IMG/VR virus record: IMGVR_UViG_2778261642_000006
Source of the DNA: a virus
Taxonomy: Duplodnaviria; Heunggongvirae; Uroviricota; Caudoviricetes
Direction: 5' to 3' (one strand)
DNA: 42,980 nucleotides
Of this stretch, positions 4,347 through 42,980 are shown in pieces; positions within the stretch are counted from its first letter, which is position 1, and every line of letters starts with the position of its first letter. The notes under the pieces are model-generated. The model was not told the origin of the DNA. It ran no database searches and was given only the letters and a program-made list of their open reading frames with translations. Made by a program: the position numbers and the translations under genes.

Positions 4347-4799
4347 TCACTTCCCCTTCACACCAATGTTGGCGGCGGCGCGCTCGGCTTCACTTTGTTC
4401 CCAAAACCACTTGTGAAGCGCCATAAGCTTTTCGTCAATCGGTGCATATTTGCGATTAAAGTAGGCCTGAGCATCTTTCTCAGATTCGTCCGGTAATTCG
4501 CCAGGGCCAAACAGTGTGTTATAAATCCATGCCAGTCCGCTTTTAGCGTCGCCAGTCGATTGCCATTCGATAATGGCAGCCTGCATGACCAGAATGTTTT
4601 TCCCGATTAATAGGTCCAGTTCTTTGTACCTGTTGCGGATGTATGCATTCTCGCTTTGTAATTCAGCGTTTCGCTTCTCTGCTGCTTCTATCTCATCCAG
4701 CAGCGCGTTAGCTTCATACTCTCTCAACACCACTGTGTCGAAGCTTTCGGCCTGCTTTTTGATTTTTGCAATCAGCGCCTGTTTGTTGATGTTGCTCAT
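4347..4799 (-). CDS. Ea22-like coiled-coil protein
   Basis: 150 aa from MSNINKQ…; GGAG RBS; start overlaps upstream stop as ATGA; coiled-coil composition typical of lambdoid Ea22-like proteins. Confidence 0.55.
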   Translation of the reverse strand: MSNINKQALIAKIKKQAESFDTVVLREYEANALLDEIEAAEKRNAELQSENAYIRNRYKELDLLIGKNILVMQAAIIEWQSTGDAKSGLAWIYNTLFGPGELPDESEKDAQAYFNRKYAPIDEKLMALHKWFWEQSEAERAAANIGVKGK

Positions 4800-16224: not shown

Positions 16225-16354
16225 GCGGGCTTTAACGTGCGCTAACTGCGGTCAGAAGCTGCATGTGCTGGAAGTTCACGTGTGCTCCGATTGCTGCGCA
16301 GAACTGATGAGCGATCCGAATAGCTCGATGCACGAGGAAGAAGACGATGGCTAA
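16178..16354 (+). CDS. ninF: NinF
   Basis: 58 aa [66 protein letters not shown]; matches recalled lambda NinF. Confidence 0.75.
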   Translation: MLIPSQSIQYQKESVERALTCANCGQKLHVLEVHVCSDCCAELMSDPNSSMHEEEDDG

Positions 16355-16913
16355 ACCAGCGCGAAGACGATGTAACCGTAAAAGAGAAGATTTAACTGTT
16401 AAAAGGATATTTGAGTTACTAAGTTTCGATAAATCTACCGGGGTATTTAGATGGAAAGTTCCCACTCAGGGAAGGATAGCATTAAATAGTGTTGCTGGAA
16501 CTTTTGATTCCAACGGTTATTCAATGATCATGATAGATGGGCGTAGATATAAAACTCACATCTTAGTTTTTTACATAACTCATAATCGCTGGCCTGCTGG
16601 TCAAATTGACCACGTTAATGGAATTAGGACCGACAATAGGCCAGAAAATTTAAGAGAATGCCTGCCAATAGAAAATTCAAGAAATATAAGGATCCGAAAG
16701 AACAGCAAATCAGGTTGCAGAGGAGTTACTTGGCACAAACGACAGAAAAAATGGAATGTTAGGCTAGGTTTCCATGGCAAGAGTAAACACTTCGGATGCT
16801 TTGATGATCTGGAGTTAGCGGTACTAGTTGCTGAAGAAGCCCGAGATAAGTATTACGGTGATTTTTCCGGCAACGAAAGGAGCACTTATGCGAATCTATC
16901 GAAGGAAATGTAA
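16347..16913 (+). CDS. HNH endonuclease with AP2-like DNA-binding domain, apparently inserted at the ninG 5' end
   Basis: Begins MAKPARRRC (recalled NinG N-terminus) then HNH motifs (…[18 protein letters not shown]…) and AP2-like segment (…[31 protein letters not shown]…). Confidence 0.75.
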
Positions 16914-19045: not shown

Positions 19046-19558
19046 ATGAAAGAAATAAAATTAACGCCAGAAATGGTGCTTTCTGTTGTTGATTACAATC
19101 CATCGTCAGGCGACTTTCACTGGAGATGGAGGCAGGGGAGAGAGAGGACCACTTTGACATGGAACTCTCGTTTTGCTTTCAAGAAATGCTCATCAATAAA
19201 TTCTGATGGGTATTTAATGATTATGATTAATGGTAAAGCATACCCTGCTCACAGACTGGCATGGTTGATTGTTTATGGCACCATGCCCGATGGTTTTATT
19301 GATCACATCAACAGGGTAAGAACAGATAACCGGATATCAAATCTTCGTCTTGTCACTCATTCCGAAAATATGCAAAACAGGAAAATTCAGAAGAATAATA
19401 AATCTGGATACCGTGGCGTGTCTTGGGATGCTAAGTACGGGAAATGGAGAGCAAGAATTAATGCGTCTGGAAAGTGTATTAACCTTGGATACCATGACAC
19501 TGCCGAACTTGCCGCTGCGGCTTTTGAGGCAGCCAGAATGAAATATCATACCGTTTAA
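19046..19558 (+). CDS. HNH endonuclease with AP2-like domain (paralogue of 16347..16913)
   Basis: 170 aa; shares HNH block (…IDHINRVRTDNRISNLR…) and AP2-like block (…SGYRGVSWDAKYGKWRARINASGKCINLGYH…) with the ninG-associated copy. Confidence 0.8.
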   Translation: MKEIKLTPEMVLSVVDYNPSSGDFHWRWRQGRERTTLTWNSRFAFKKCSSINSDGYLMIMINGKAYPAHRLAWLIVYGTMPDGFIDHINRVRTDNRISNLRLVTHSENMQNRKIQKNNKSGYRGVSWDAKYGKWRARINASGKCINLGYHDTAELAAAAFEAARMKYHTV

Positions 19559-34314: not shown

Positions 34315-36482
34315 TGGCTAAAGCATGGAAAGATGTTATCGCCTCTCCACAGTATCAGGCGTTAACTGAAGAACAGAAAGCACAGGCTCAAGCGCAATAT
34401 TTTGATGAGGTTGTTGCCCCTAAGGCTGGTGACAAATGGGCTGAAGCAAGAGATCAGTTTTATGCAGCATACCCTCCGCCTCAGCAGCAGAAAGAAGAAC
34501 CATCATTGATGCAACAAGCTGGTGATTGGCTCACAGGCGGTCAAAGTGCAGGGCAAATTGCAGAGCAGGCTGGTCGTGGTCTGGTAAACATACCATTTGA
34601 CGTATTGCAGGGTGGCGCAAGTCTGATTAATGCAATCAGTCAGGGGCTTGGTGGGCCCAAGGTTTTGGATGATGTCTATCGTCCAGTCGATCGACCGACA
34701 GACCCTTACGCGCAAGCCGGTGAAACAATTGGTGGGTATCTCCTGCCAATTGGCACAGCGGCAAAAGCTGCTGGAGCGCCAGCAAAGCTCGCTGGAGATA
34801 TCAGTTCCGCAGGAAACATGATTGCAGGTTCTCTTGCTGATGCTGCAAATCAGGAGGGTGATTTTGCACAAAATGCTGCCATTAACGGTGGTATCAATAT
34901 TGGTGCTCAAGGCGTTCTTTCAGGTGTCGGGCGCGTTATTGCGCCAAGGGTTTCACAGGCTCTTGGTGGTGCAGCACTGAATTCTGCTAATGATGTTTCG
35001 AAAATGGCAAAGTCAGGTACAGGAAGAGAGATTATTGCCAGACAGTCAGCTAACGTGTCAGACGAAATAGCAAAAGCAGCAGATACTGCTGGAATAGATA
35101 TCAACGCATTAACTCCTGGCATGAGATCAGGTAGTCGTGGTCTTGCTCAGGCGGAGGGGATTCTGGCGTCAAAGCCCGGAATTACACAGGATGCACACAC
35201 CAAAGCATTCAGTGAAATAGAGTCGAAATTTAACTCAGCATTGGATGAGTTTGGGGCTGAAGCAGGAACTGCATCAGAAAAAAGTGCAGCCATAAAACAG
35301 AGGGTTTTGGCAAGCATTGATAAAATGAAAAATTCAGAAAAGGCCGCATGGGATAGCGTCCGCTCCACGATGCCTGACGCAAAGGCCAGAATGTCAAACC
35401 TGAACGCTACAATTCAGGGTGATATTTTGGCTGGCATGCCGCTAACTCCTGAGATGAAACAATTCGCATCTGCTTATGCTAAAACTGGTAAAAAAGGAAT
35501 CACGTTTGATGCCATGAAGGCATGGCGAAGTAAACTTGCTGACGCAGAGCAGAAGTATATAAGGTCTGGTGAGGCAAATACGGCAAGGCGCATGGCTGAG
35601 CTTCGTGATGCAGCAACGGAAGATATGCGCATAATGGCTCAAAATGGCGGTTTTCTTGATGACTGGCAAAAAGCTAATGACCTGTCAAAGGCAAGATTTA
35701 CAGCACAAGAACAGGCTGAAGCAGCGTTTGGCAGAGACCTTGCAACTGATCAGTTGGTAAATAATGGCTCTAAGGCGTTACAGGGCTCAGCAAAAAGTGG
35801 AACAGGTCAGTTCCATAAAATAATAAGCGCCCTACCTGAGTCGGAACGCGCGCCAGCAATTGCATCAATATTACAAGATGCAATGTCGCAAGGGGTACGC
35901 GGAGGTAAGTCTGAAGAGGCTGGAATTAAGCATATCGCGACTATTCTTACCCCACAAAACGTGAAGGCAATTAGTCGATATTCTCCAGAACTTGGCAGGA
36001 TTACAAGTTCATACGGAGAACTTGCAAGAGCAGCAACAAAGCCACTTCGATATGTTGAACAGACAGGGCGATCTATGCCAGCCATTAGCACTCTTGAGAA
36101 TGGCCTTCATCCAGTTTTAGAGAGCGCATTGTCTGGCGCTTTTAGAACTACTGGCACTATCGCAGGGTTCTCTGGAGGAGGCGTTATTGGAGCAATAGCG
36201 GGTGGCGCTGCAGGTGGAGCAATTGATGCAATGGCAAAAGGAGCGATAGCGAAATTATCCGCAACTAGAAGCGGTCGTTACGCTATTGAAAAGGCTGTTC
36301 AAGAGGCAACAAAGGCAGTTAAGGTTGGGGCAAGTGATGGTGCATTAGCGGCGGCGGAACGCAGATTTATGGCAAATAAGGCCGCCGTAAAAGCAATACG
36401 CGAGGCACTAGGAAACGAAGAGTTCCAGCGTTTAGCAAGGGCTGGAATTGTGGCATCGCTAAGCGGAATGGCACAGGAGTAA
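34314..36482 (+). CDS. Ejection (internal virion) protein, gp16 position
   Basis: 722 aa, Ala/Gly-rich with Gly-rich C-terminal segment; order as P22 gp16. Confidence 0.6.
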
Positions 36483-36812
36483 TTAGTCATCCATGGATGG
36501 ATTGAGCTTATCTCGTGTTGATGTGGCAATTTTCCCAACATTTTTCAACCAAGATTTTAAGAAGGATATGTCGTCCTTAATATCATGAATATCCTCATTC
36601 TTTATACGATCAACCTTATCCTCTAGGCTCTCTATAGAACGCTCAATGCTAGACAGAGAGATTTTTAAGTCTCCTTGATCACGTTCCAGTGAGGATTTGA
36701 GAGCACAATATTCGTTTTCTAGAATTCCTATTTTTTTTGTTAGAGAGTGCATTCGATACTCATACACCAAACCAGAAACGACTAATGCAGCCAACAGAAA
36801 CCATTCAAGCAC
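36483..36812 (-). CDS. Hypothetical membrane-anchored coiled-coil protein (sieA-position accessory gene)
   Basis: 109 aa from GTG with AAGGAGG RBS 5 nt upstream; N-terminal hydrophobic helix (LEWFLLAALVVSGLVYEY) then heptad-rich region. Confidence 0.5.
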   Translation of the reverse strand: MLEWFLLAALVVSGLVYEYRMHSLTKKIGILENEYCALKSSLERDQGDLKISLSSIERSIESLEDKVDRIKNEDIHDIKDDISFLKSWLKNVGKIATSTRDKLNPSMDD

Positions 36813-36842
36813 ACCAACCTCCTTAGTTTTGCGCAGGATACC

Positions 36843-37208
36843 ATGAAAAAAGTTAACATTGGAAACGTACCAAAGATGCTCGTTCCGCTCTTTGAGAGCG
36901 GTACAATTGTGTTTTGTAGAGACTTTCCAGAATGGCAACGCCTGCATCAAAAACTTGGCGTTGACGTGCATGACTCGGACGCCAACGGAGCGTCTCATAC
37001 AATGAGTAGCGAGAATGGTGTTTTGCATGTGATAGGCGTGTTCAATGGCAAACTATCTACTATTGCCCATGAGTGCGCTCACATGGCATTCGATATCTGC
37101 TCAAGGGTAGGTGTTGATGTTGAACCAGGAAGAGCCAACGAGACTTACTGCTACTTAATGAGCAGGCTTGTTGAGTTCTGCGAGCGACATATCAAAAAGC
37201 CGGAGTGA
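36843..37208 (+). CDS. Hypothetical protein with HEXXH zinc-metallopeptidase-like motif
   Basis: 121 aa; …STIAHECAHMAFDI…; divergent from the membrane gene with only ~30 bp between starts. Confidence 0.5.
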   Translation: MKKVNIGNVPKMLVPLFESGTIVFCRDFPEWQRLHQKLGVDVHDSDANGASHTMSSENGVLHVIGVFNGKLSTIAHECAHMAFDICSRVGVDVEPGRANETYCYLMSRLVEFCERHIKKPE

Positions 37209-37221
37209 CCCGGCTTGATTA

Positions 37222-37401
37222 TTACTTTTTGCTGTCTGGAGTTCGCTTATCCAATACCCAGCCATGACCTGGCTTTGTTGTTGGTGGAAGCCTTTCGTTG
37301 TCCTTGACGGTTGCAAAATTGTCTTTCTTACCGCCGCGTGGGCCAACTTCTTGGTATATTCCGCCGTTTTTTCCTGTGTTTTCACCTGGTTTTTTCGCCA
37401 T
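37222..37401 (-). CDS. Small YjzC-like protein
   Basis: 59 aa MAKKPGENTGKNGGIYQEVGPRGG…; GAGGT RBS; Gly/Pro/Lys-rich pattern recalled for YjzC-family proteins. Confidence 0.45.
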   Translation of the reverse strand: MAKKPGENTGKNGGIYQEVGPRGGKKDNFATVKDNERLPPTTKPGHGWVLDKRTPDSKK

Positions 37402-37500
37402 GATATACCTCAACATACACCCGTTATTGGGCGATTAAATATTGATCTCATTTTATAAGTAGTCAATATGGCCCAGGTAAATGCAAAAATTAACCCACCT

Positions 37501-37752
37501 TCAGGTGGGTTTTTTGTACAAATCCTTCAGCGTATCAAACACCATCTTCTTAACAAGCTCTGACTGCTCATCAGCGATGCGTTCCGCATCGTCTCGATAG
37601 CCTGAAATTTTGGATGGCTTTGATACAGCATCAGTCACTATCTGAACTAATTCTGAATTAAGAGAGCGACCATTGGATTTGGCTCGCTGTTTTAGTTTTT
37701 CCTTTAATTCGTAAGGTAGCCGCAGATTAAATTGCGGGTCATCTCTTCCCAT
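37501..37752 (-). CDS. mnt: Mnt repressor (ribbon-helix-helix, P22 immI)
   Basis: 83 aa MGRDDPQFNLRLPYELKEKLKQRAKSNGRSLNSELVQIVTDAVSKPSKISGYRDDAERIADEQSELVKKMVFDTLKDLYKKPT, closely matching recalled P22 Mnt. Confidence 0.9.
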   Translation of the reverse strand: MGRDDPQFNLRLPYELKEKLKQRAKSNGRSLNSELVQIVTDAVSKPSKISGYRDDAERIADEQSELVKKMVFDTLKDLYKKPT

Positions 37753-37815
37753 TCTTGATGCCTCGCTTTTGTGAGTGGATCGGCATCTTATTATCTGCTG
37801 GTTGCATCCTCAATA

Positions 37816-37830
37816 AGACCACAGTGGTCT
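37816..37830. promoter_or_regulatory. Putative Mnt operator (AGACCAC-A-GTGGTCT palindrome)
   Basis: Perfect 15-bp inverted repeat between mnt and the tailspike start, where P22 has Omnt/Pant. Confidence 0.55.
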
Positions 37831-37898
37831 CTTTGTTTGATTAATAATGCATCACTGTGGCAATGCTGCGGCGATTCCTTGTATCTGGAGCAAATTAA

Positions 37899-40550
37899 AT
37901 GACAGACATTACAGCCAATGTTGTAGTGAGTATGCCTTCGCAACTCTTCACTATGGCGCGTTCTTTTAAAGCCGTAGCCAATGGCAAAATTTATATCGGT
38001 AAAATTGACACTGACCCGGTAAATCCTGAAAACCGGATTCAGGTTTATGTGGAGAACGAAGACGGCTCTCACGTTCCTGTATCGCAGCCAATCATCATTA
38101 ACGCTGCCGGATATCCTGTATATAACGGACAGATTGCCAAATTCGTTACTGTACAGGGCCATTCTATGGCTGTTTATGATGCGTATGGTTCGCAGCAGTT
38201 CTATTTTCCAAACATTCTGAAATATGATCCTGATCAGTTTAAACAAGAACTAGAGAATAAATTTAACAATGGTTCAACTCCATCAATTATAAATTATAAG
38301 TACGGTCTTCCAGAAGAAGTAGACGGAGCAACACAAAGGACGCTACAGGATAAACTTGATGACCATGTAAATGTTCGCGATTTTGGTGCAAAAGGGGATG
38401 GCATTACTGACGATACAGACGCAATAACAAGTGCCATCATTTACTGCGCATCTAACGGAAAACGCCTGAAGTGGGATTCTGGTGTGTATTTGATTAGCCG
38501 CATAAAATGCGGCGGGGATAATTATAACTATGACTGGGTAGCTGATGGCAAGGTTGTCTTAAAGTCAACCGCAAAAGAGCCTCTTGGCCCAAACTGGATT
38601 GATGATTATTTCATAAGACTCGAAGGTGGAGATGCCACGCCAATTGACTATAATTCAACAATAAATCCTGGTGACACATCAATATCAATTAACTCAGCAT
38701 ACTCTGTTGATGCAGGCGATATAATTATGATTCATGGCAATCGCTTAATTCAGACAGATAATAGAGGACAGGCTTGTGAAGGTGAAATGCATGTTGTTAC
38801 TGCTTTTGATAATGCAACAAAAAAAGCGGAGATATCAGGTGCATTTTATTTTTTCTACTCTGCGAGCAATGATTACTCAACGACCGTAACAGCATCTGTA
38901 TCCGGAGGTGAATTCTCATTTGGTAATGATGCAACATTAACAAAACAATACAATCAGGTAAAAGTAACAGGTGTCACCGGAGCTAACGCCGGAACATCAA
39001 GATACATAACTCATTGGGATTACGACACTAAAACAGCAAAATTTGAATATGCTCAGGGACCATTCCCGTTTAAACCATCTGTTGGAGACGTGTTTAAAAT
39101 CACAAGAAAGGCAAATATATATAAAAGAAAACCATGCTACGGCAGAATTGTTGGTGATTTCAATTTTGAAAGACCTGTCACGCAGAACGCATCTCCTGGT
39201 GATTTGGGGTTCCGTGGTCTTGTGATAGATGGCGCTGTTGATATGCATATAGAAGGAATAAAACTAATCGGCTTTTCAGAAACTGGAATTTTTCTTGAGT
39301 CATGCTACAGAACGAAAATAATAGAACCATATATTGAATACTCAAACCGTGCATATGATTTAACAAACGGCACTGGTTATGGTGTTGAAATATACAATAG
39401 CAGCTATTGCACAGTCGTGGATATGATAGCATTTGCTTGCAGGAGGGGGCTTGATGTAAGCGGGACTCAAATGGTATCACTGTATAATAACATTATAAAT
39501 CCAACGATGATGGGTGGTGGAACTGCATATGATGGAGTTAAATTTTTCCCTGATGGCGATACAAGAAATTCATGTTGCGGTGGACACGGCCCATCATACG
39601 AAACAACTTTTACAGGCGGCAATTCAGTCAATTTGTATTATGCTGGTGTAATACGCGGATTAAATGAAGTGTATGATGGAATGAACGCCAGGGGATTTAG
39701 CGGCCCGGCTCCTTTTTTTGTAAGATATAGTGGTGGTGGGTTCACGATTCAGAACTGTAATTATATTGATGGTTTTACTGAGATGTCTTTGCCATACAAC
39801 TTGAGGTACAAACCTGTGAATGCAACTCAACGTAATCACAGACCTCTTGTTTTTATTGAAACAACTCTGGCACAGACAGACAGAAACTCTTACTATAAAG
39901 AACTTCCTGTTGTTATTAAAAATAATACCGCAAGGACTGTTCTCAAGGGCTTTTTACGTTTTGAGGTTAATGATGGCCTCACCCCTCTAATCCAAAATAT
40001 TTATTTTGGTGGTAATTTATGTATGGCGAACCCAGAAACATCAGACTCTGTATCAGGGCAAACAGAGGCAGTAATGGTTTATTCATCTGTTCCTGGTGCA
40101 ATAATTGTTCGAAATTTCCATGATCTTGGCGGTAACAGAATTGTTCCTGTTGGAGCAGGATACAGATACTGCGGTATGTTCAACACGCCAGATGGAATAG
40201 CAGGAACAATAGTTCAACCAGACGGAAAATATCTAATAACACTTGAAGCCAACAAATCTACAAGTATCCTTGTTGGTGGATACGTACCATGTGTTCGCCT
40301 TGATATGCACGACATACTTGATATTCATGGGGTAATTGCAGTTGGTGTTCTTATTCATCGTGGTGAGGCAATTGATTTTTCTCCTTTAAAAGAAATTAAT
40401 AAGCAAAATGTTGTATTGAAAACCGGAGTTCTTTCAGATAATGATGGTGATGAAAATAACTTAAATATTTCGTTTGACTTTGCAACCATATATTTAAGCA
40501 ACAAGATGCCAAATAAGATTCAACTATCTATTGAAGTATCAGGAGTGTAA
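37899..40550 (+). CDS. Tailspike protein: P22-type head-binding domain plus long divergent beta-helix receptor-binding domain
   Basis: N-terminus [59 protein letters not shown]… matches recalled P22 gp9 N-terminus; 883 aa total. Confidence 0.9.
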
Positions 40551-40874: not shown

Positions 40875-40970
40875 CGAACACATAATTACCGATGAAACAA
40901 AACTGAGACACACAAAGCTTTGCACTGGATTGCGAGGCGTTGCGCTTCTCTGGAGTGCGACAGGTTTGAT

Positions 40971-41013
40971 GACAAAAAATTAGCGCAAGAAGACAAAAAC
41001 CACCTTGCGCTAA
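40971..41013 (-). terminator. lambda sib/tI-like hairpin in the attP P-arm
   Basis: TTAGCGCAAG…CTTGCGCTAA stem preceded on the forward strand by an A-run (U-tract on minus strand); surrounding sequence matches recalled lambda attP arm. Confidence 0.55.
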
Positions 41014-41159
41014 TGCTCTGTTACAGGTCACTAATACCATCTAAGTAGTTGATTCATAGTGACTGCATATGTTGTGTTTTACAGTATTATCTAGTCTATT
41101 TTTTATACGAAATGAAATGTAATATATTGATATTTATAACATTTTACGTTTCTCGTTCA

Positions 41160-41174
41160 GCTTTTTTATACTAA
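41160..41174. repeat. attR core (GCTTTTTTATACTAA)
   Basis: Exact repeat of the attL core, followed by attB-like …cttgagcgaaacggg. Confidence 0.85.
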
Positions 41175-41264
41175 CTTGAGCGAAACGGGAAGGTAAAAAG
41201 ACAAAAAGTTGTTTTTAATACCTTTAAGTGATACCAGATGGCATTGCGCCATCTGGCAGAGTGA

Positions 41265-41741
41265 TTAACTAAACATCGCAGTAATCGAGGCACTCGCCAG
41301 AGAGTGAAAATGAACGTTAAACCCGACCATCGCGCCGCTGGCACCTTCATCGACATCAATACGTTCTACATCCAGCGCGTGAACGGTAAAAATGTAGCGA
41401 TGGGTTTCGCCTTTCGGCGGCGCTGCGCCATCGTACCCGGTTTTACCAAAGTCGGTACGCGTCTGCAAAACGCCGTCTGGCATAGCTACCAGACCAGAGC
41501 CAAACCCTTGCGGTAATACGCGGGTATCAGCGGGTAAATTAACAACTACCCAGTGCCACCAGCCGGAGCCGGTTGGCGCATCCGGGTCATAGCAGGTGAC
41601 AACAAAACTTTTCGTTCCCACAGGAACATCATCCCACGCCAGATGCGGTGAAATATTATCGCCATCGTAACCCATGCCGTTAAAGACATGACGATGCGGC
41701 AGCTTATCGCCATCGCGCAGATCGTTACTGATGAGTTTCAT
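41265..41741 (-). CDS. ybhB: Host PEBP/UPF0098-family protein YbhB-like
   Basis: 158 aa; PEBP-like motifs (…CYDPDAPTGSGWWHWVVVNLP…); recalled as the gene on the bio side of attB-lambda. Confidence 0.85.
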   Translation of the reverse strand: MKLISNDLRDGDKLPHRHVFNGMGYDGDNISPHLAWDDVPVGTKSFVVTCYDPDAPTGSGWWHWVVVNLPADTRVLPQGFGSGLVAMPDGVLQTRTDFGKTGYDGAAPPKGETHRYIFTVHALDVERIDVDEGASGAMVGFNVHFHSLASASITAMFS

Positions 41742-41849
41742 TAGAATGCCTCCGGGAAACCTCGGCCTTCAGACCGGGGAGGAAAGGAGGCGGTTTTCCG
41801 ACTAACTGTACTTTGCATAATCACATTTTCCTCTTTAGTATGTGAACAC

Positions 41850-42980
41850 ATGAAACGCGCATATAAATACCGGTTTTACCCGACAACTGAGCAGGCTGAG
41901 CTTTTAGCTCAGACGTTTGGCTGTGTGCGCTTCGTCTACAATTCCATCCTTCGTTGGCGTACCGATGCGTACTACGAGCGAAAAGAAAAGATCGGTTATC
42001 TACAGGCCAACGCTCGCCTTACGGCGCTCAAAAAAGAGCCTGAATACATATGGCTGAATGATGTTTCCTGCGTTCCCCTCCAGCAGTCGTTGCGCCACCA
42101 ACAAGCCGCCTTTGCTAACTTCTTTGCCGGACGAGCTGCATATCCGGCTTTCAAAAGCAAACGGCACAAACAGGTGGCTGAGTTCACTGCCAGCGCGTTT
42201 AAACACCGTGACGGCGAGTTGTATATAGCAAAGAGCAAGTCGCCGCTGGATGTTCGCTGGAGTCGAGAATTACCATCTGCGCCGTCAACCGTTACCATTT
42301 CCAGAGATAGCGCTGGCAGGTACTTTGTTTCCTGCCTGTGTGAGTTTGAACCTGTATCAATGCCTGTTACCGCTAAAACGGTCGGCATTGATGTGGGCTT
42401 AAAAGATTTATTCGTCACCGATACCGGATTCAAAACCGACAATCCCCGCCACACCGCTAAATATGCGAAGCGATTAACGCTGCTACAGCGACGTTTAAGC
42501 AGGAAGCAAAAAGGCTCAAGAAACCGTATTAAAGCCCGCTTAAAGGTCGCCCGACTCCACGCGAAAATCGCCGATTGCCGGATGGACAATCTGCACAAGT
42601 TGTCCCGCAAACTGATTAACGAAAACCAAGTTGTTTGCGTCGAATCCCTCAAGGTGAAAAACATGATCCGCAACCCGAAGCTGTCTAAAGCAATAGCTGA
42701 CGCAGGCTGGAGCGAACTTGTTCGCCAGCTCCAGTACAAAGGCAAATGGGCCGGGCGGTCAGTGGTCGCCATTGACCAGTATTTACCGTCCTCAAAATGC
42801 TGTAGTTGCTGCGGTTTCACCATGCAAAAAATGCCTCTTAATGTTCGTAAATGGCACTGCCCTGAATGCGGCGCAGACCATGATCGCGACATTAACGCGG
42901 CACGTAATATTAAAGCTGCCGGGCTGGCAGTGTTAGCCCACGGAGAGCCTGTAAACCCTGAATCGCAGCACGCGGCTTAG
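41850..42980 (+). CDS. tnpB: IS200/IS605-family TnpB (OrfB) RuvC-like nuclease
   Basis: 376 aa; N-terminus MKRAYKYRFYPTTEQ; RuvC-like motifs (GIDVGLKDLFV, …DHDRDINAARNI) and zinc finger (CCSCCG…CPECG); stop codon is the last 3 nt of the window. Confidence 0.85.
   Translation: MKRAYKYRFYPTTEQAELLAQTFGCVRFVYNSILRWRTDAYYERKEKIGYLQANARLTALKKEPEYIWLNDVSCVPLQQSLRHQQAAFANFFAGRAAYPAFKSKRHKQVAEFTASAFKHRDGELYIAKSKSPLDVRWSRELPSAPSTVTISRDSAGRYFVSCLCEFEPVSMPVTAKTVGIDVGLKDLFVTDTGFKTDNPRHTAKYAKRLTLLQRRLSRKQKGSRNRIKARLKVARLHAKIADCRMDNLHKLSRKLINENQVVCVESLKVKNMIRNPKLSKAIADAGWSELVRQLQYKGKWAGRSVVAIDQYLPSSKCCSCCGFTMQKMPLNVRKWHCPECGADHDRDINAARNIKAAGLAVLAHGEPVNPESQHAA

What the first reader, a model, noticed from the sequence alone, without database searches (positions are those of the whole stretch)
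37501..37898. immI remnant: mnt and operator retained, arc and ant absent
A P22-like Mnt repressor and a perfect AGACCAC-A-GTGGTCT palindrome lie directly upstream of the tailspike, but no Arc or antirepressor ORF is present. An orphan repressor/operator pair could now regulate tailspike or neighbouring accessory genes instead.
Basis: partly seen in the sequence, partly recalled or inferred. Interest (0 to 1): 0.45.

Follow-up and report, generated by a model that had tools for sequence, protein, structure and literature searches.

The report
Mnt-only immunity remnant beside tailspike
This is the known "mnt-only" form of the phage P22 secondary immunity region: an intact Mnt repressor gene with its own promoter and binding site, from which the antirepressor genes were cleanly deleted. 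It occurs in many E. coli and Salmonella prophages, so it is ordinary rather than new.

Summary
Window 37501..37752(-) encodes an 83-aa Mnt repressor, 76% identical to P22 Mnt and 100% identical to that of E. coli phage Gally. A perfect 15-bp palindrome (37816..37830) sits at the position of the P22 mnt operator. No arc or ant exists anywhere in the window, and the tailspike gene starts at 37899.

The arrangement is not new. Phages L, ST64T, ST104, SE1, ST160 and Gally have it, the literature describes it, and about 2% of complete E. coli genomes carry it.

It is not decaying. dN/dS against the Salmonella ST160 allele is 0.09 and 63 of 65 alleles are intact. The operator arms are conserved while the central base varies freely.

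This Mnt class (Gln6, GRDDPQFNLR) always pairs with AAGACCAC-N-GTGGTCTT and never has arc/ant in 65 loci. The P22 class (His6) always pairs with AGGTCCAC-G-GTGGACCT and has arc/ant in 15 loci.

The leftward mnt promoter is retained next to the operator. The rightward ant promoter is gone, so there is no sequence evidence that Mnt controls a tailspike promoter. The likeliest reading is a self-contained, autoregulated repressor cassette that may act in trans on incoming phages. Low novelty.

The parts
37492..37511 (.). Bidirectional intrinsic-terminator hairpin (AACCCACC-TTCA-GGTGGGTT) overlapping the mnt stop codon. It ends the mnt transcript and faces rightward transcripts coming from upstream.
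   Evidence: Terminator scan, both strands. The homologous position is annotated as a terminator in epsilon34 and L. Homology between the window and Gally begins here, at 37493.
37501..37752 (-). mnt, encoding an 83-aa ribbon-helix-helix repressor with the Mnt C-terminal tetramerisation helix. It belongs to the Gln6 class (N-terminus GRDDPQFNLR).
   Evidence: Pfam PF03869 and PF11423; PDB 1MNT and 1QEY; 76% identical to P22 Mnt; 100% identical to Gally Mnt; dN/dS 0.088 against ST160.
37761..37764 (-). Shine-Dalgarno GAGG, 8 nt upstream of the mnt ATG.
   Evidence: Read from the sequence; invariant in the alignment of 34 distinct intergenic sequences.
37785..37813 (-). Predicted mnt promoter Pmnt: -35 TTGAGG (37813..37808), 17-nt spacer, -10 TAAGAT (37790..37785). 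The predicted start is near 37778.
   Evidence: Best sigma-70 PWM site on either strand of the region (score 10.5). It lies at the position homologous to P22 Pmnt (TTGAGA-17-TATCAT, score 13.1). The same geometry is found in ST160 and L (TTGTGG-17-TATGAT). Predicted only; no transcript mapping.
37815..37831 (.). mnt operator, class B: AAGACCAC-A-GTGGTCTC (perfect 15-bp core at 37816..37830). It is centred at 37823, about -45 relative to the predicted Pmnt start.
   Evidence: It aligns with P22 Omnt AGGTCCAC-G-GTGGACCT. The arms are conserved and the central base is A, C, G or T across 65 loci. The identical site lies between a Gln6 Mnt-like gene and arc-ant in L121/L130. Binding is inferred, not shown.
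37832..37836 (.). Deletion junction. TTGT microhomology where the P22-like Omnt flank joins the P22-like gene 9 leader; arc, sar, ant and t_ant (about 1.29 kb in P22) are absent.
   Evidence: Local alignments: window 37771..37846 aligns with P22 L001 3367..3444, and window 37833..37898 aligns with L001 4721..4786.
37833..37898 (+). Tailspike 5' leader, homologous to the P22 gene 9 leader. It contains a hairpin (CTGTGGC-AAT-GCTGCGG, 37855..37871) and the Shine-Dalgarno GGAG (37887..37890).
37899..40550 (+). Tailspike gene (883 aa), with an N-terminal P22 head-binding domain and a divergent receptor-binding part.
   Evidence: Pfam PF09008, E=4e-66; RefSeq annotation of the same DNA in E. coli YP3.

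Best explanation
The locus is the mnt-only allele of the P22-family "ant moron" (immI), of the same type as in phages L, ST64T, SE1, ST160 and Gally. An ancestral mnt-Pmnt/Omnt/Pant-arc-sar-ant unit lost everything to the right of the operator in a clean deletion. What remains is a self-contained cassette: the mnt gene, its leftward promoter Pmnt, the Mnt operator immediately upstream of the Pmnt -35 (centre about -45, the same geometry as in P22), and a terminator.

Mnt is made as a tetramer. It most likely still binds the palindrome AAGACCAC-N-GTGGTCTT. This is a specificity class distinct from P22: residue 6 of the recognition strand is Gln instead of His, and two base pairs per half-site differ. 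Because the rightward ant promoter has decayed, the only cis target left is the mnt promoter itself (autoregulation; direction unknown).

Strong purifying selection implies a second, useful target. The likeliest is in trans: repression of the ant promoter of incoming or co-resident phages that carry the same operator class. That would protect the prophage's main repressor from a foreign antirepressor.

Shown: gene identity, operator homology, co-variation of the Mnt and operator classes, loss of arc, ant and Pant, and selection on mnt. Inferred: binding, autoregulation and the trans role.
For: Identity and homology.

Known arrangement: annotated mnt-next-to-tailspike in ST160, L, Gally, Sf101 and VSe13, and the literature.

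Selection: 22 synonymous against 9 non-synonymous differences between the window and ST160 alleles, dN/dS 0.088. 63 of 65 IMG/VR alleles are intact.

Operator under constraint: the arms are conserved and the centre is free (A/C/G/T). A 19-bp site identical to the phage L/ST160 (Salmonella-type) operator, and matching the window's at the 15-bp core apart from the central base, occurs in the distant locus L121/L130, whose flanks are unalignable and whose Mnt is only 58% identical.

Class co-variation: 65 of 65 Gln6 Mnt genes have GACCAC-N-GTGGTC-type sites and no arc/ant. 15 of 15 His6 Mnt genes have arc and ant, and 11 of them show a perfect GGTCCAC-N-GTGGACC palindrome. Phage L Mnt has a different C-terminal domain but the same N-terminal domain and the same operator.

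Promoters: Pmnt is retained (score 10.5, homologous position), and no rightward promoter is present (best 4.9; the P22 controls score 15.5 and 13.1).

Targets: there is no second operator in the window. A full class-B immI exists elsewhere, so trans targets exist.

Published genetics: phage L lacks functional immI towards P22, which fits a different operator specificity. A Gally delta-mnt lysogen is viable, as expected when no ant is present.
Against: No binding or transcription data exist for this Mnt class. The Pmnt prediction is modest (8 of 12 consensus positions; about the 92nd percentile of shuffles).

In P22, as I recall from Vershon et al. 1987 (not checked here), Mnt helps Pmnt mainly by shutting off the competing Pant. 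With Pant gone, it is unclear why the operator is still needed in cis.

Only one class-B operator with arc-ant was found (L121/L130, host unknown). None was found in the phage database for E. coli; phage N7 has arc-ant but different operators. Trans targets may therefore be rare.

In Gally, mnt is at background level in LB stationary phase and is induced 40-fold in macrophages together with its neighbours. That pattern suggests condition-dependent control of the region rather than constitutive immunity.

A few loci have single-base changes in one operator arm.
Confidence: 0.6

Rival explanations
1. Mnt bound at the operator modulates tailspike expression in cis. It could act as a roadblock to rightward transcripts, through interference between leftward Pmnt transcription and rightward late-operon transcription, or by repressing a weak non-consensus promoter in the 68 nt between the operator and the tailspike start.
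For: The operator lies 68 nt upstream of the tailspike ATG. The mnt-operator-tailspike-leader block is linked in about 97% of E. coli copies (109 of 112 genomes). The literature already suggests that the P22 ant moron, and possibly Mnt and Arc, set tailspike levels by affecting read-through from the late promoter (Adams et al. 1985, as cited in Villafane 2008). In Gally the tailspike mRNA rises about 20-fold in macrophages while the upstream injection gene stays silent, so late-operon-independent transcription of the tailspike does occur.
Against: No rightward sigma-70 site scores above 4.9, below the shuffled median of 7.7. The operator-to-tailspike spacer is the least conserved part and carries 13-nt and 11-nt indels. 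The mnt and tailspike mRNAs rise together rather than reciprocally. The tailspike signal in Gally can be explained by read-through from the strongly expressed upstream plus-strand gene. Late transcripts are antiterminated and should pass a roadblock.
Confidence: 0.2
2. Mnt has been co-opted as a condition-responsive regulator of other genes, in the host or in another prophage. It would be expressed mainly in particular environments such as inside macrophages, and its own operator would serve only for autoregulation.
For: mnt is the most strongly induced Gally gene in macrophages (40-fold) and is at background level in LB. Purifying selection is strong. Zaworski 2021 raises "another function" for the phage L homologue.
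Against: There is no second operator-like site in the 43-kb window. The delta-mnt mutant has no survival phenotype in macrophages.
Confidence: 0.12
3. The locus is a non-functional remnant. mnt and the palindrome are neutral leftovers of a recent deletion and are on their way to decay.
For: Zaworski 2021 lists this as one possibility for phage L. Two of 65 alleles carry a premature stop, and a few operators have one arm mutated. The delta-mnt mutant shows no phenotype so far.
Against: dN/dS is 0.088 across an E. coli/Salmonella divergence with dS about 0.55. 63 of 65 alleles are intact. The same junction is shared by E. coli and Salmonella phages, so the deletion is old. The operator arms and Pmnt are conserved, whereas the neighbouring former Pant -10 decayed (TATATT in P22, TTATAT in L, TTGCAT here).
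Confidence: 0.06

Closest known systems
Phage P22 immI region (mnt - Pmnt/Oarc/Omnt/Pant - arc - sar - ant)
   Same: Same position, between the gene 16 homologue and the tailspike gene. Mnt is 76% identical and has the same tetramerisation domain. The operator is at the same place relative to the Pmnt -35. The terminator after mnt is the same, and so is the gene 9 leader.
   Different: arc, sar, ant, the arc operator and the Pant promoter are absent. The operator half-site is AAGACCAC instead of AGGTCCAC, and Mnt residue 6 is Gln instead of His. The main job of P22 Mnt, keeping ant off in the lysogen, has no cis target here.
mnt-only "ant moron" of Salmonella phages L, ST64T, ST104, SE1 and ST160
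   Same: Same architecture: mnt, operator, then the tailspike gene. Same Mnt N-terminal class (GRDDPQFNLR), same operator arms, same Pmnt geometry and essentially the same deletion junction. Described.
   Different: About 85% DNA identity. The Salmonella version has a perfect 19-bp palindrome and lacks 13 nt to the right of the operator. Phage L and ST64T Mnt have a divergent C-terminal domain. The genes to the left of mnt differ.
Escherichia phage Gally (prophage 1 of AIEC strain LF82)
   Same: mnt protein 100% identical. In E. coli LF82 the 146-bp intergenic region is 100% identical, and the phage Gally record is 99.0% identical over window 37493..38000. Transcriptome and delta-mnt data exist for it.
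   Different: The genes immediately to the left of mnt are unrelated; homology starts at window 37493. The tailspike receptor-binding part differs (883 aa against 799 aa).
Full class-B immI in IMG/VR contig IMGVR_UViG_2795385501_000005 (L121/L130)
   Same: It has the operator TAAGACCAC-C-GTGGTCTTA next to the -35 of a Gln6 Mnt-like gene (ARNDPQFNLR).
   Different: It still has arc and a 299-aa ant (57% identical to P22 Ant). Its Mnt-like protein has an unrelated C-terminal domain. It lies on a 70-kb contig of unknown host.

Membership tests
Mnt repressor family (Pfam PF03869 + PF11423) | N-terminal ribbon-helix-helix (Arc-like) DNA-binding domain | tested here: met
   PF03869, E=2.8e-22, residues 3-50. 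PDB 1MNT, E=2.8e-34, aligned over residues 3-77.
Mnt repressor family (Pfam PF03869 + PF11423) | C-terminal coiled-coil tetramerisation domain | tested here: met
   PF11423, E=2.2e-18, residues 53-80. PDB 1QEY, E=3e-12; 28 of 31 residues identical.
Mnt repressor family (Pfam PF03869 + PF11423) | Recognition-strand contact residues of P22 Mnt (Arg2, His6, Asn8, Arg10; assignment recalled from Knight and Sauer, not checked here) | tested here: inconclusive
   Arg2, Asn8 and Arg10 are kept. His6 is replaced by Gln in all 65 class-B alleles. This is consistent with an altered specificity rather than a loss of binding.
Mnt repressor family (Pfam PF03869 + PF11423) | Binds a 17-bp two-fold symmetric operator as a tetramer | not testable with these tools
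   A 15/17-bp palindrome is present at the homologous position and is conserved. Binding itself needs a gel-shift or footprinting experiment.
P22-type immI (complete secondary immunity region) | Antirepressor gene ant | tested here: not met
   tblastn with P22 Ant finds no hit in the window. There is no KilAC antirepressor either.
P22-type immI (complete secondary immunity region) | arc gene and arc operator | tested here: not met
   Arc tblastn hits only mnt. There are no TAGA boxes at the homologous position.
P22-type immI (complete secondary immunity region) | Rightward promoter Pant overlapped by Omnt | tested here: not met
   The best rightward PWM score is 4.9, against 15.5 for P22 Pant. 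The hexamer at the former -10 position is TTGCAT.
P22-type immI (complete secondary immunity region) | mnt with leftward Pmnt and Omnt adjacent to its -35 | tested here: met
   TTGAGG-17-TAAGAT scores 10.5 at the homologous position, and the operator ends 2 nt from the -35. This is a prediction only.
mnt-only "ant moron" (L / ST64T / SE1 / ST160 / Gally type) | Located between the gene 16 homologue (DNA transfer protein) and the tailspike gene, with mnt immediately upstream of and divergent from the tailspike | tested here: met
   The DNA transfer protein gene ends at 36482, mnt is at 37501..37752(-) and the tailspike gene starts at 37899. The layout is the same in ST160, L and Gally.
mnt-only "ant moron" (L / ST64T / SE1 / ST160 / Gally type) | Class-B Mnt N-terminus (GRDDPQFNLR) with an AAGACCAC-N-GTGGTCTT operator | tested here: met

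The most novel reading that the evidence does not exclude
The orphan Gln6 Mnt is kept as a trans-acting "anti-antirepressor" immunity factor. A prophage with no ant of its own keeps a repressor and operator class that silences the ant promoter of superinfecting or co-resident phages of the same immI class, so it is not induced by a foreign antirepressor. On this reading, immI specificity classes (His6/AGGTCCAC, Gln6/AAGACCAC, and the Sf101/IME10 class) would be a second layer of immunity groups in P22-like phages. A variant of the idea is that the cassette is a macrophage-induced regulator of tailspike or moron expression.
Probability: 0.25. Interest if true: 0.45.

Novelty: already known. Interest (0 to 1): 0.2.

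Why it matters
It matters little as a discovery. The mnt-only arrangement has been described for ST64T, ST104, L, SE1, ST160 and Gally. The exact sequence is in a studied prophage (Gally of AIEC LF82) for which a delta-mnt mutant already exists.

The modest added value of this analysis is fourfold:
- The orphan mnt is under strong purifying selection, so it is not junk.
- Mnt proteins and operators fall into discrete co-varying specificity classes. This explains the old genetic result that phage L "lacks" immI function towards P22.
- Within the P22-like loci sampled, the Gln6 class is always ant-less, while a complete Gln6-class immI exists in another phage.
- The ant promoter decayed while the mnt promoter and operator were kept.

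Together these turn the open question raised for phage L ("another function or a remnant?") into specific tests that can be run with existing strains.

Tried and rejected
(1) Hidden arc or ant. tblastn with P22 Arc, Ant and SieA over the whole window found none. The small intergenic ORFs (29 aa and 43 aa) have no family hit and are not conserved in the Salmonella version.

(2) Another antirepressor in the prophage. RefSeq annotates a KilAC antirepressor in the nin region of E. coli YP3, whose mnt region is identical. The window is mosaic relative to YP3 and lacks that gene. PHROGs scans of nin-region and early-region ORFs found none.

(3) A second Mnt operator in the prophage. None was found within 3 mismatches.

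(4) A rightward promoter for the tailspike. Neither the consensus scan nor the PWM scan with P22 controls found one.

(5) Operator in other genomic contexts. The IMG/VR scan gave 36 of 39 hits next to mnt, 3 unrelated hits, and one full immI among the 36 (L121).

(6) Gln6 as the sole specificity determinant. This was rejected as a strong claim. Other phages (N7, L132-L137) have ARNDPQFN(L/V)R N-termini with different nearby palindromes, some of which resemble arc operators. The co-variation claim is therefore limited to the P22-like classes plus L121/L131.

(7) Primary papers on Mnt specificity and P22 tail-gene expression (Silbaq 2002, Berggrun 2001, Adams 1985) are not held in the library. 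Statements about His6, and about Mnt helping Pmnt by shutting off Pant, rest on my own recollection and are marked as such.

Full report
**1. What is there**

The window's right end is the late region of a P22-like (Lederbergvirus) prophage inserted next to ybhB-bioA.

- The gene 16 homologue (DNA transfer protein) ends at 36482.
- Three small genes of unknown function follow. They are a phrog_5962 gene at 36483..36812(-), a phrog_1365 gene at 36843..37208(+), and a homologue of P22 ORF59 at 37222..37416(-) that is 98% identical.
- Next comes a bidirectional terminator hairpin at 37492..37511.
- mnt lies at 37501..37752(-).
- A 146-bp intergenic region follows.
- The tailspike gene is at 37899..40550(+).

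The mnt product matches Pfam Arc and Repressor_Mnt. It also matches the solved Mnt structures 1MNT and 1QEY. It is 76% identical to P22 Mnt.

The palindrome AGACCAC-A-GTGGTCT is at 37816..37830 and is unique in the window. P22 Arc and Ant have no counterpart anywhere in the window.

**2. Is the palindrome more than chance?**

On its own, only mildly. A perfect 7+1+7 palindrome appears in 0.7% of shuffles of the 146-bp region, and the whole window contains eight. The strong evidence is homology.

- In P22, the sequence running from the mnt start codon towards arc is ...TTGACA-17-TATATT-CTCAAT-AGGTCCACGGTGGACCT....
- In the window it is ...CCTCAAT-AAGACCACAGTGGTCTC....
- The palindrome therefore sits exactly where the P22 mnt operator (Omnt) sits. 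It abuts the reverse complement of the Pmnt -35 hexamer.

**3. Map of the deletion**

Local alignment places window 37771..37846 on P22 L001 3367..3444, which is the Pmnt/Omnt region. It places window 37833..37898 on L001 4721..4786, which is the leader of gene 9.

The two blocks meet at a TTGT present in both P22 segments, 2-6 nt to the right of the operator. About 1.29 kb of the P22 layout is missing: arc, the arc-ant intercistronic sar region, ant and its terminator. The operator is kept intact.

**4. It is a known, widespread configuration**

A DNA search of phage genomes shows mnt directly followed by the tailspike gene in several phages:
- Salmonella phages ST160, SE1 and the ST-29/32/35/87 series, at 85% identity over the whole 601-bp query.
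- E. coli phages Gally and vB_EcoP-720R6, at 99% identity.

Phage L (= ST64T) has the same layout. So do Sf101, IME10 and VSe13, which carry a third Mnt type.

The literature says so explicitly:
- Villafane et al. 2008 call the gene 16-to-gene 9 region the "ant moron". [quoted passage not shown]
- Zaworski et al. [quoted passage not shown]

Among 5,426 complete E. coli genomes, 112 carry mnt plus operator at 80% coverage or more. In 109 the mnt-tailspike intergenic region is contiguous.

**5. Two co-varying specificity classes**

I fetched 80 IMG/VR loci encoding close relatives of this Mnt and scored each one.

| Mnt N-terminus | Loci | Operator | arc / ant |
|---|---|---|---|
| MGRDDPQFNLR (Gln6, class B) | 65 | GACCAC-N-GTGGTC type (59 perfect; 6 with one arm base changed) | none |
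| MARDDPHFNFR (His6, class A, P22/epsilon34) | 15 | GGTCCAC-N-GTGGACC where a perfect palindrome was scored (11 of 15) | both present |

In class B the central base is A, C, G or T while the arms are constant. That is the pattern expected of a site read by a symmetric protein that does not contact the centre.

Phage L Mnt has a different C-terminal domain but the class-B N-terminal domain and the class-B operator. The N-terminal domain therefore tracks the operator.

Class B differs from class A at two symmetric base pairs per half-site (AAGACCAC against AGGTCCAC) and at residue 6 of the recognition strand. Arg2, Asn8 and Arg10 are unchanged. From memory of the P22 literature (Youderian 1983; Knight and Sauer 1989/1992; Stormo laboratory), residue 6 is a specificity determinant. 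I could not retrieve those papers.

Caution is needed here. Other phages share the Q-F-N-x-R strand but have different nearby palindromes, some of which look like arc operators. Gln6 alone should not be taken as sufficient.

The class difference fits the classical genetic result that phage L lacks immI function towards P22.

**6. A complete class-B immI exists**

An exact scan of IMG/VR for AAGACCACNGTGGTCTT gave 39 loci, 36 of them next to an mnt gene.

One of these, L121/L130 on a 70-kb contig of unknown host, has the Salmonella-type site TAAGACCAC-C-GTGGTCTTA. It lies between a Gln6 Mnt-like gene (MARNDPQFNLR, with an unrelated C-terminal domain) and an arc gene followed by a 299-aa ant. 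Class B was therefore once, and elsewhere still is, a working immI. Potential trans targets for the orphan Mnt exist.

**7. The remnant is under selection**

Between the window allele and the ST160 allele there are 22 synonymous and 9 non-synonymous differences. This gives dS 0.55, dN 0.048 and dN/dS 0.088. Both alleles are orphans and share essentially the same junction, so this selection acted in the orphan state.

Of the 65 alleles, 63 are intact. Two share an R53-stop, and one of those two also has a mutated operator arm.

**8. Which promoter does the operator serve?**

I ran a simple sigma-70 weight-matrix scan. It recovers P22 Pant (15.5) and Pmnt (13.1) as the top sites on their strands.

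- The best site on either strand of the window is leftward: TTGAGG (37813..37808), 17 nt, TAAGAT (37790..37785). It scores 10.5 and lies at the position homologous to P22 Pmnt.
- ST160 and L have TTGTGG-17-TATGAT at the same place.
- The best rightward site scores 4.9, below the median best score of shuffled sequence (7.7).
- The hexamer at the former Pant -10 position reads TATATT in P22, TTATAT in L, TTGTAT in ST160 and TTGCAT here. That is progressive decay.

In the alignment of 34 distinct class-B intergenic sequences, the stretch from the mnt start codon through the operator is nearly invariant. The stretch from the operator to the conserved tailspike leader varies and carries 13-nt and 11-nt indels.

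The conserved unit is therefore mnt, Pmnt and the operator, with the operator centred about 45 bp upstream of the predicted mnt start, as in P22. No promoter links the operator to the tailspike. The tailspike should be expressed from the Q-antiterminated late operon reading through the two terminators at 37197..37216 and 37492..37511.

**9. Experimental data on the identical element**

The intergenic region in E. coli LF82, the host of prophage Gally, is 100% identical to the window's, and Gally Mnt is 100% identical in protein sequence. Misson et al. 2023 report the following for Gally.

- mnt is at background level in LB stationary phase and is 40-fold up in macrophages.
- The tailspike gene and the three neighbouring small genes rise 6- to 40-fold.
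- The injection-protein gene just upstream stays silent.
- A delta-mnt lysogen was built and survives in macrophages like the wild type.

These data lead to four points.
- Mnt is not needed to maintain lysogeny, as expected without ant.
- The region can be transcribed independently of the late operon.
- mnt and tailspike mRNAs go up together, which argues against simple repression of the tailspike by Mnt.
- No phenotype is yet known.

In Gally the tailspike signal may come from read-through of the highly expressed upstream plus-strand gene. That gene is not present in the window, so this point may not transfer.

**10. Verdict**

The label "immI remnant" is right. The idea that the pair now controls the tailspike is not supported by sequence evidence, though interference or roadblock effects remain possible. 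Casjens and colleagues suggested this decades ago.

The best-supported account is a conserved, self-contained, probably autoregulated repressor cassette of a distinct operator class, whose selective value most plausibly lies in trans.

The arrangement is already known. The element is identical to one in a studied prophage. Interest is low.

Noticed in passing
window 37501..37752; records NC_014900, NC_011802, NC_004348, NC_027398 and others: Mnt homologues are annotated as "partition protein ATPase" in several RefSeq phage records, and the best PHROG (phrog_795) carries the same label. This looks like a propagated mis-annotation of an 83-aa ribbon-helix-helix repressor.
   Followed up: partly
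window 37855..37871; P22 locus L001 4622..4640 and 4745..4761: A 7-bp-stem hairpin (CTGTGGC-AAT-GCTGCGG) lies about 15 nt upstream of the tailspike Shine-Dalgarno. It is conserved from P22, which has two copies. Changes are mostly wobble or one-sided and keep the pairing. An 11-nt deletion removes it in three variants (L035, L047, L053), so it is not essential. Function unknown; an mRNA processing or stability element is possible.
   Followed up: partly
IMG/VR loci L028, L039, L056-L060, L065, L069, L074 (between mnt and tailspike): In about 10 class-B loci the ancestral tailspike start survives as a 16-codon stub (ATGACAGATATTATAAATAG...). It is followed by a roughly 280-bp AT-rich insert and a second tailspike start with its own Shine-Dalgarno. 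This looks like a scar of tailspike module replacement. An in-frame upstream ORF beginning MNRRLFFKT resembles a Tat signal but is probably incidental.
   Followed up: partly
IMG/VR loci L069 and L074: Two class-B mnt alleles share a premature stop at codon 53, and L069 also has a mutated operator arm (AAGATCAC). These are examples of real decay of the cassette in some prophages.
   Followed up: no
window 36483..37493 compared with Gally (L003 1953..2992): The part of the moron to the left of mnt is mosaic. The window has a P22 ORF59 homologue (98% identical) plus phrog_1365 and phrog_5962 genes. Gally has two unrelated genes there. Homology with Gally starts exactly at the terminator hairpin (37493), which suggests that the hairpin is a recombination boundary.
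   Followed up: partly
window 37438..37466 (-): The only promoter-like site that passed the consensus scan in 37150..38050 (TTGACT-17-AATATT) lies upstream of the ORF59 homologue, between it and the mnt terminator. This small gene may have its own promoter and be expressed from the prophage.
   Followed up: no
window 16347..16913 and 19046..19558: Two paralogous HNH endonuclease genes (phrog_99) flank the NinG/NinI/Q part of the nin region.
   Followed up: no
window 40875..42980: The prophage's right end abuts ybhB, with an IS200/IS605-family TnpB gene (41850 to the window end) between ybhB and bioA. This is the neighbourhood of the lambda attachment site. The window is mosaic relative to the E. 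coli YP3 prophage, which shares the mnt region at 100% identity.
   Followed up: partly
loci L006 (Sf101), L007 (IME10), L008 (VSe13): A third orphan Mnt class has the N-terminus ...YDEAQFHLRLPHE and a different, imperfect site (AGTACC-ATTTC-GGTAT) at the same position next to CTCAATA / CAACAAT. It also has no arc or ant and lies directly upstream of the tailspike. The mnt-only state therefore occurs in at least two Mnt classes.
   Followed up: partly
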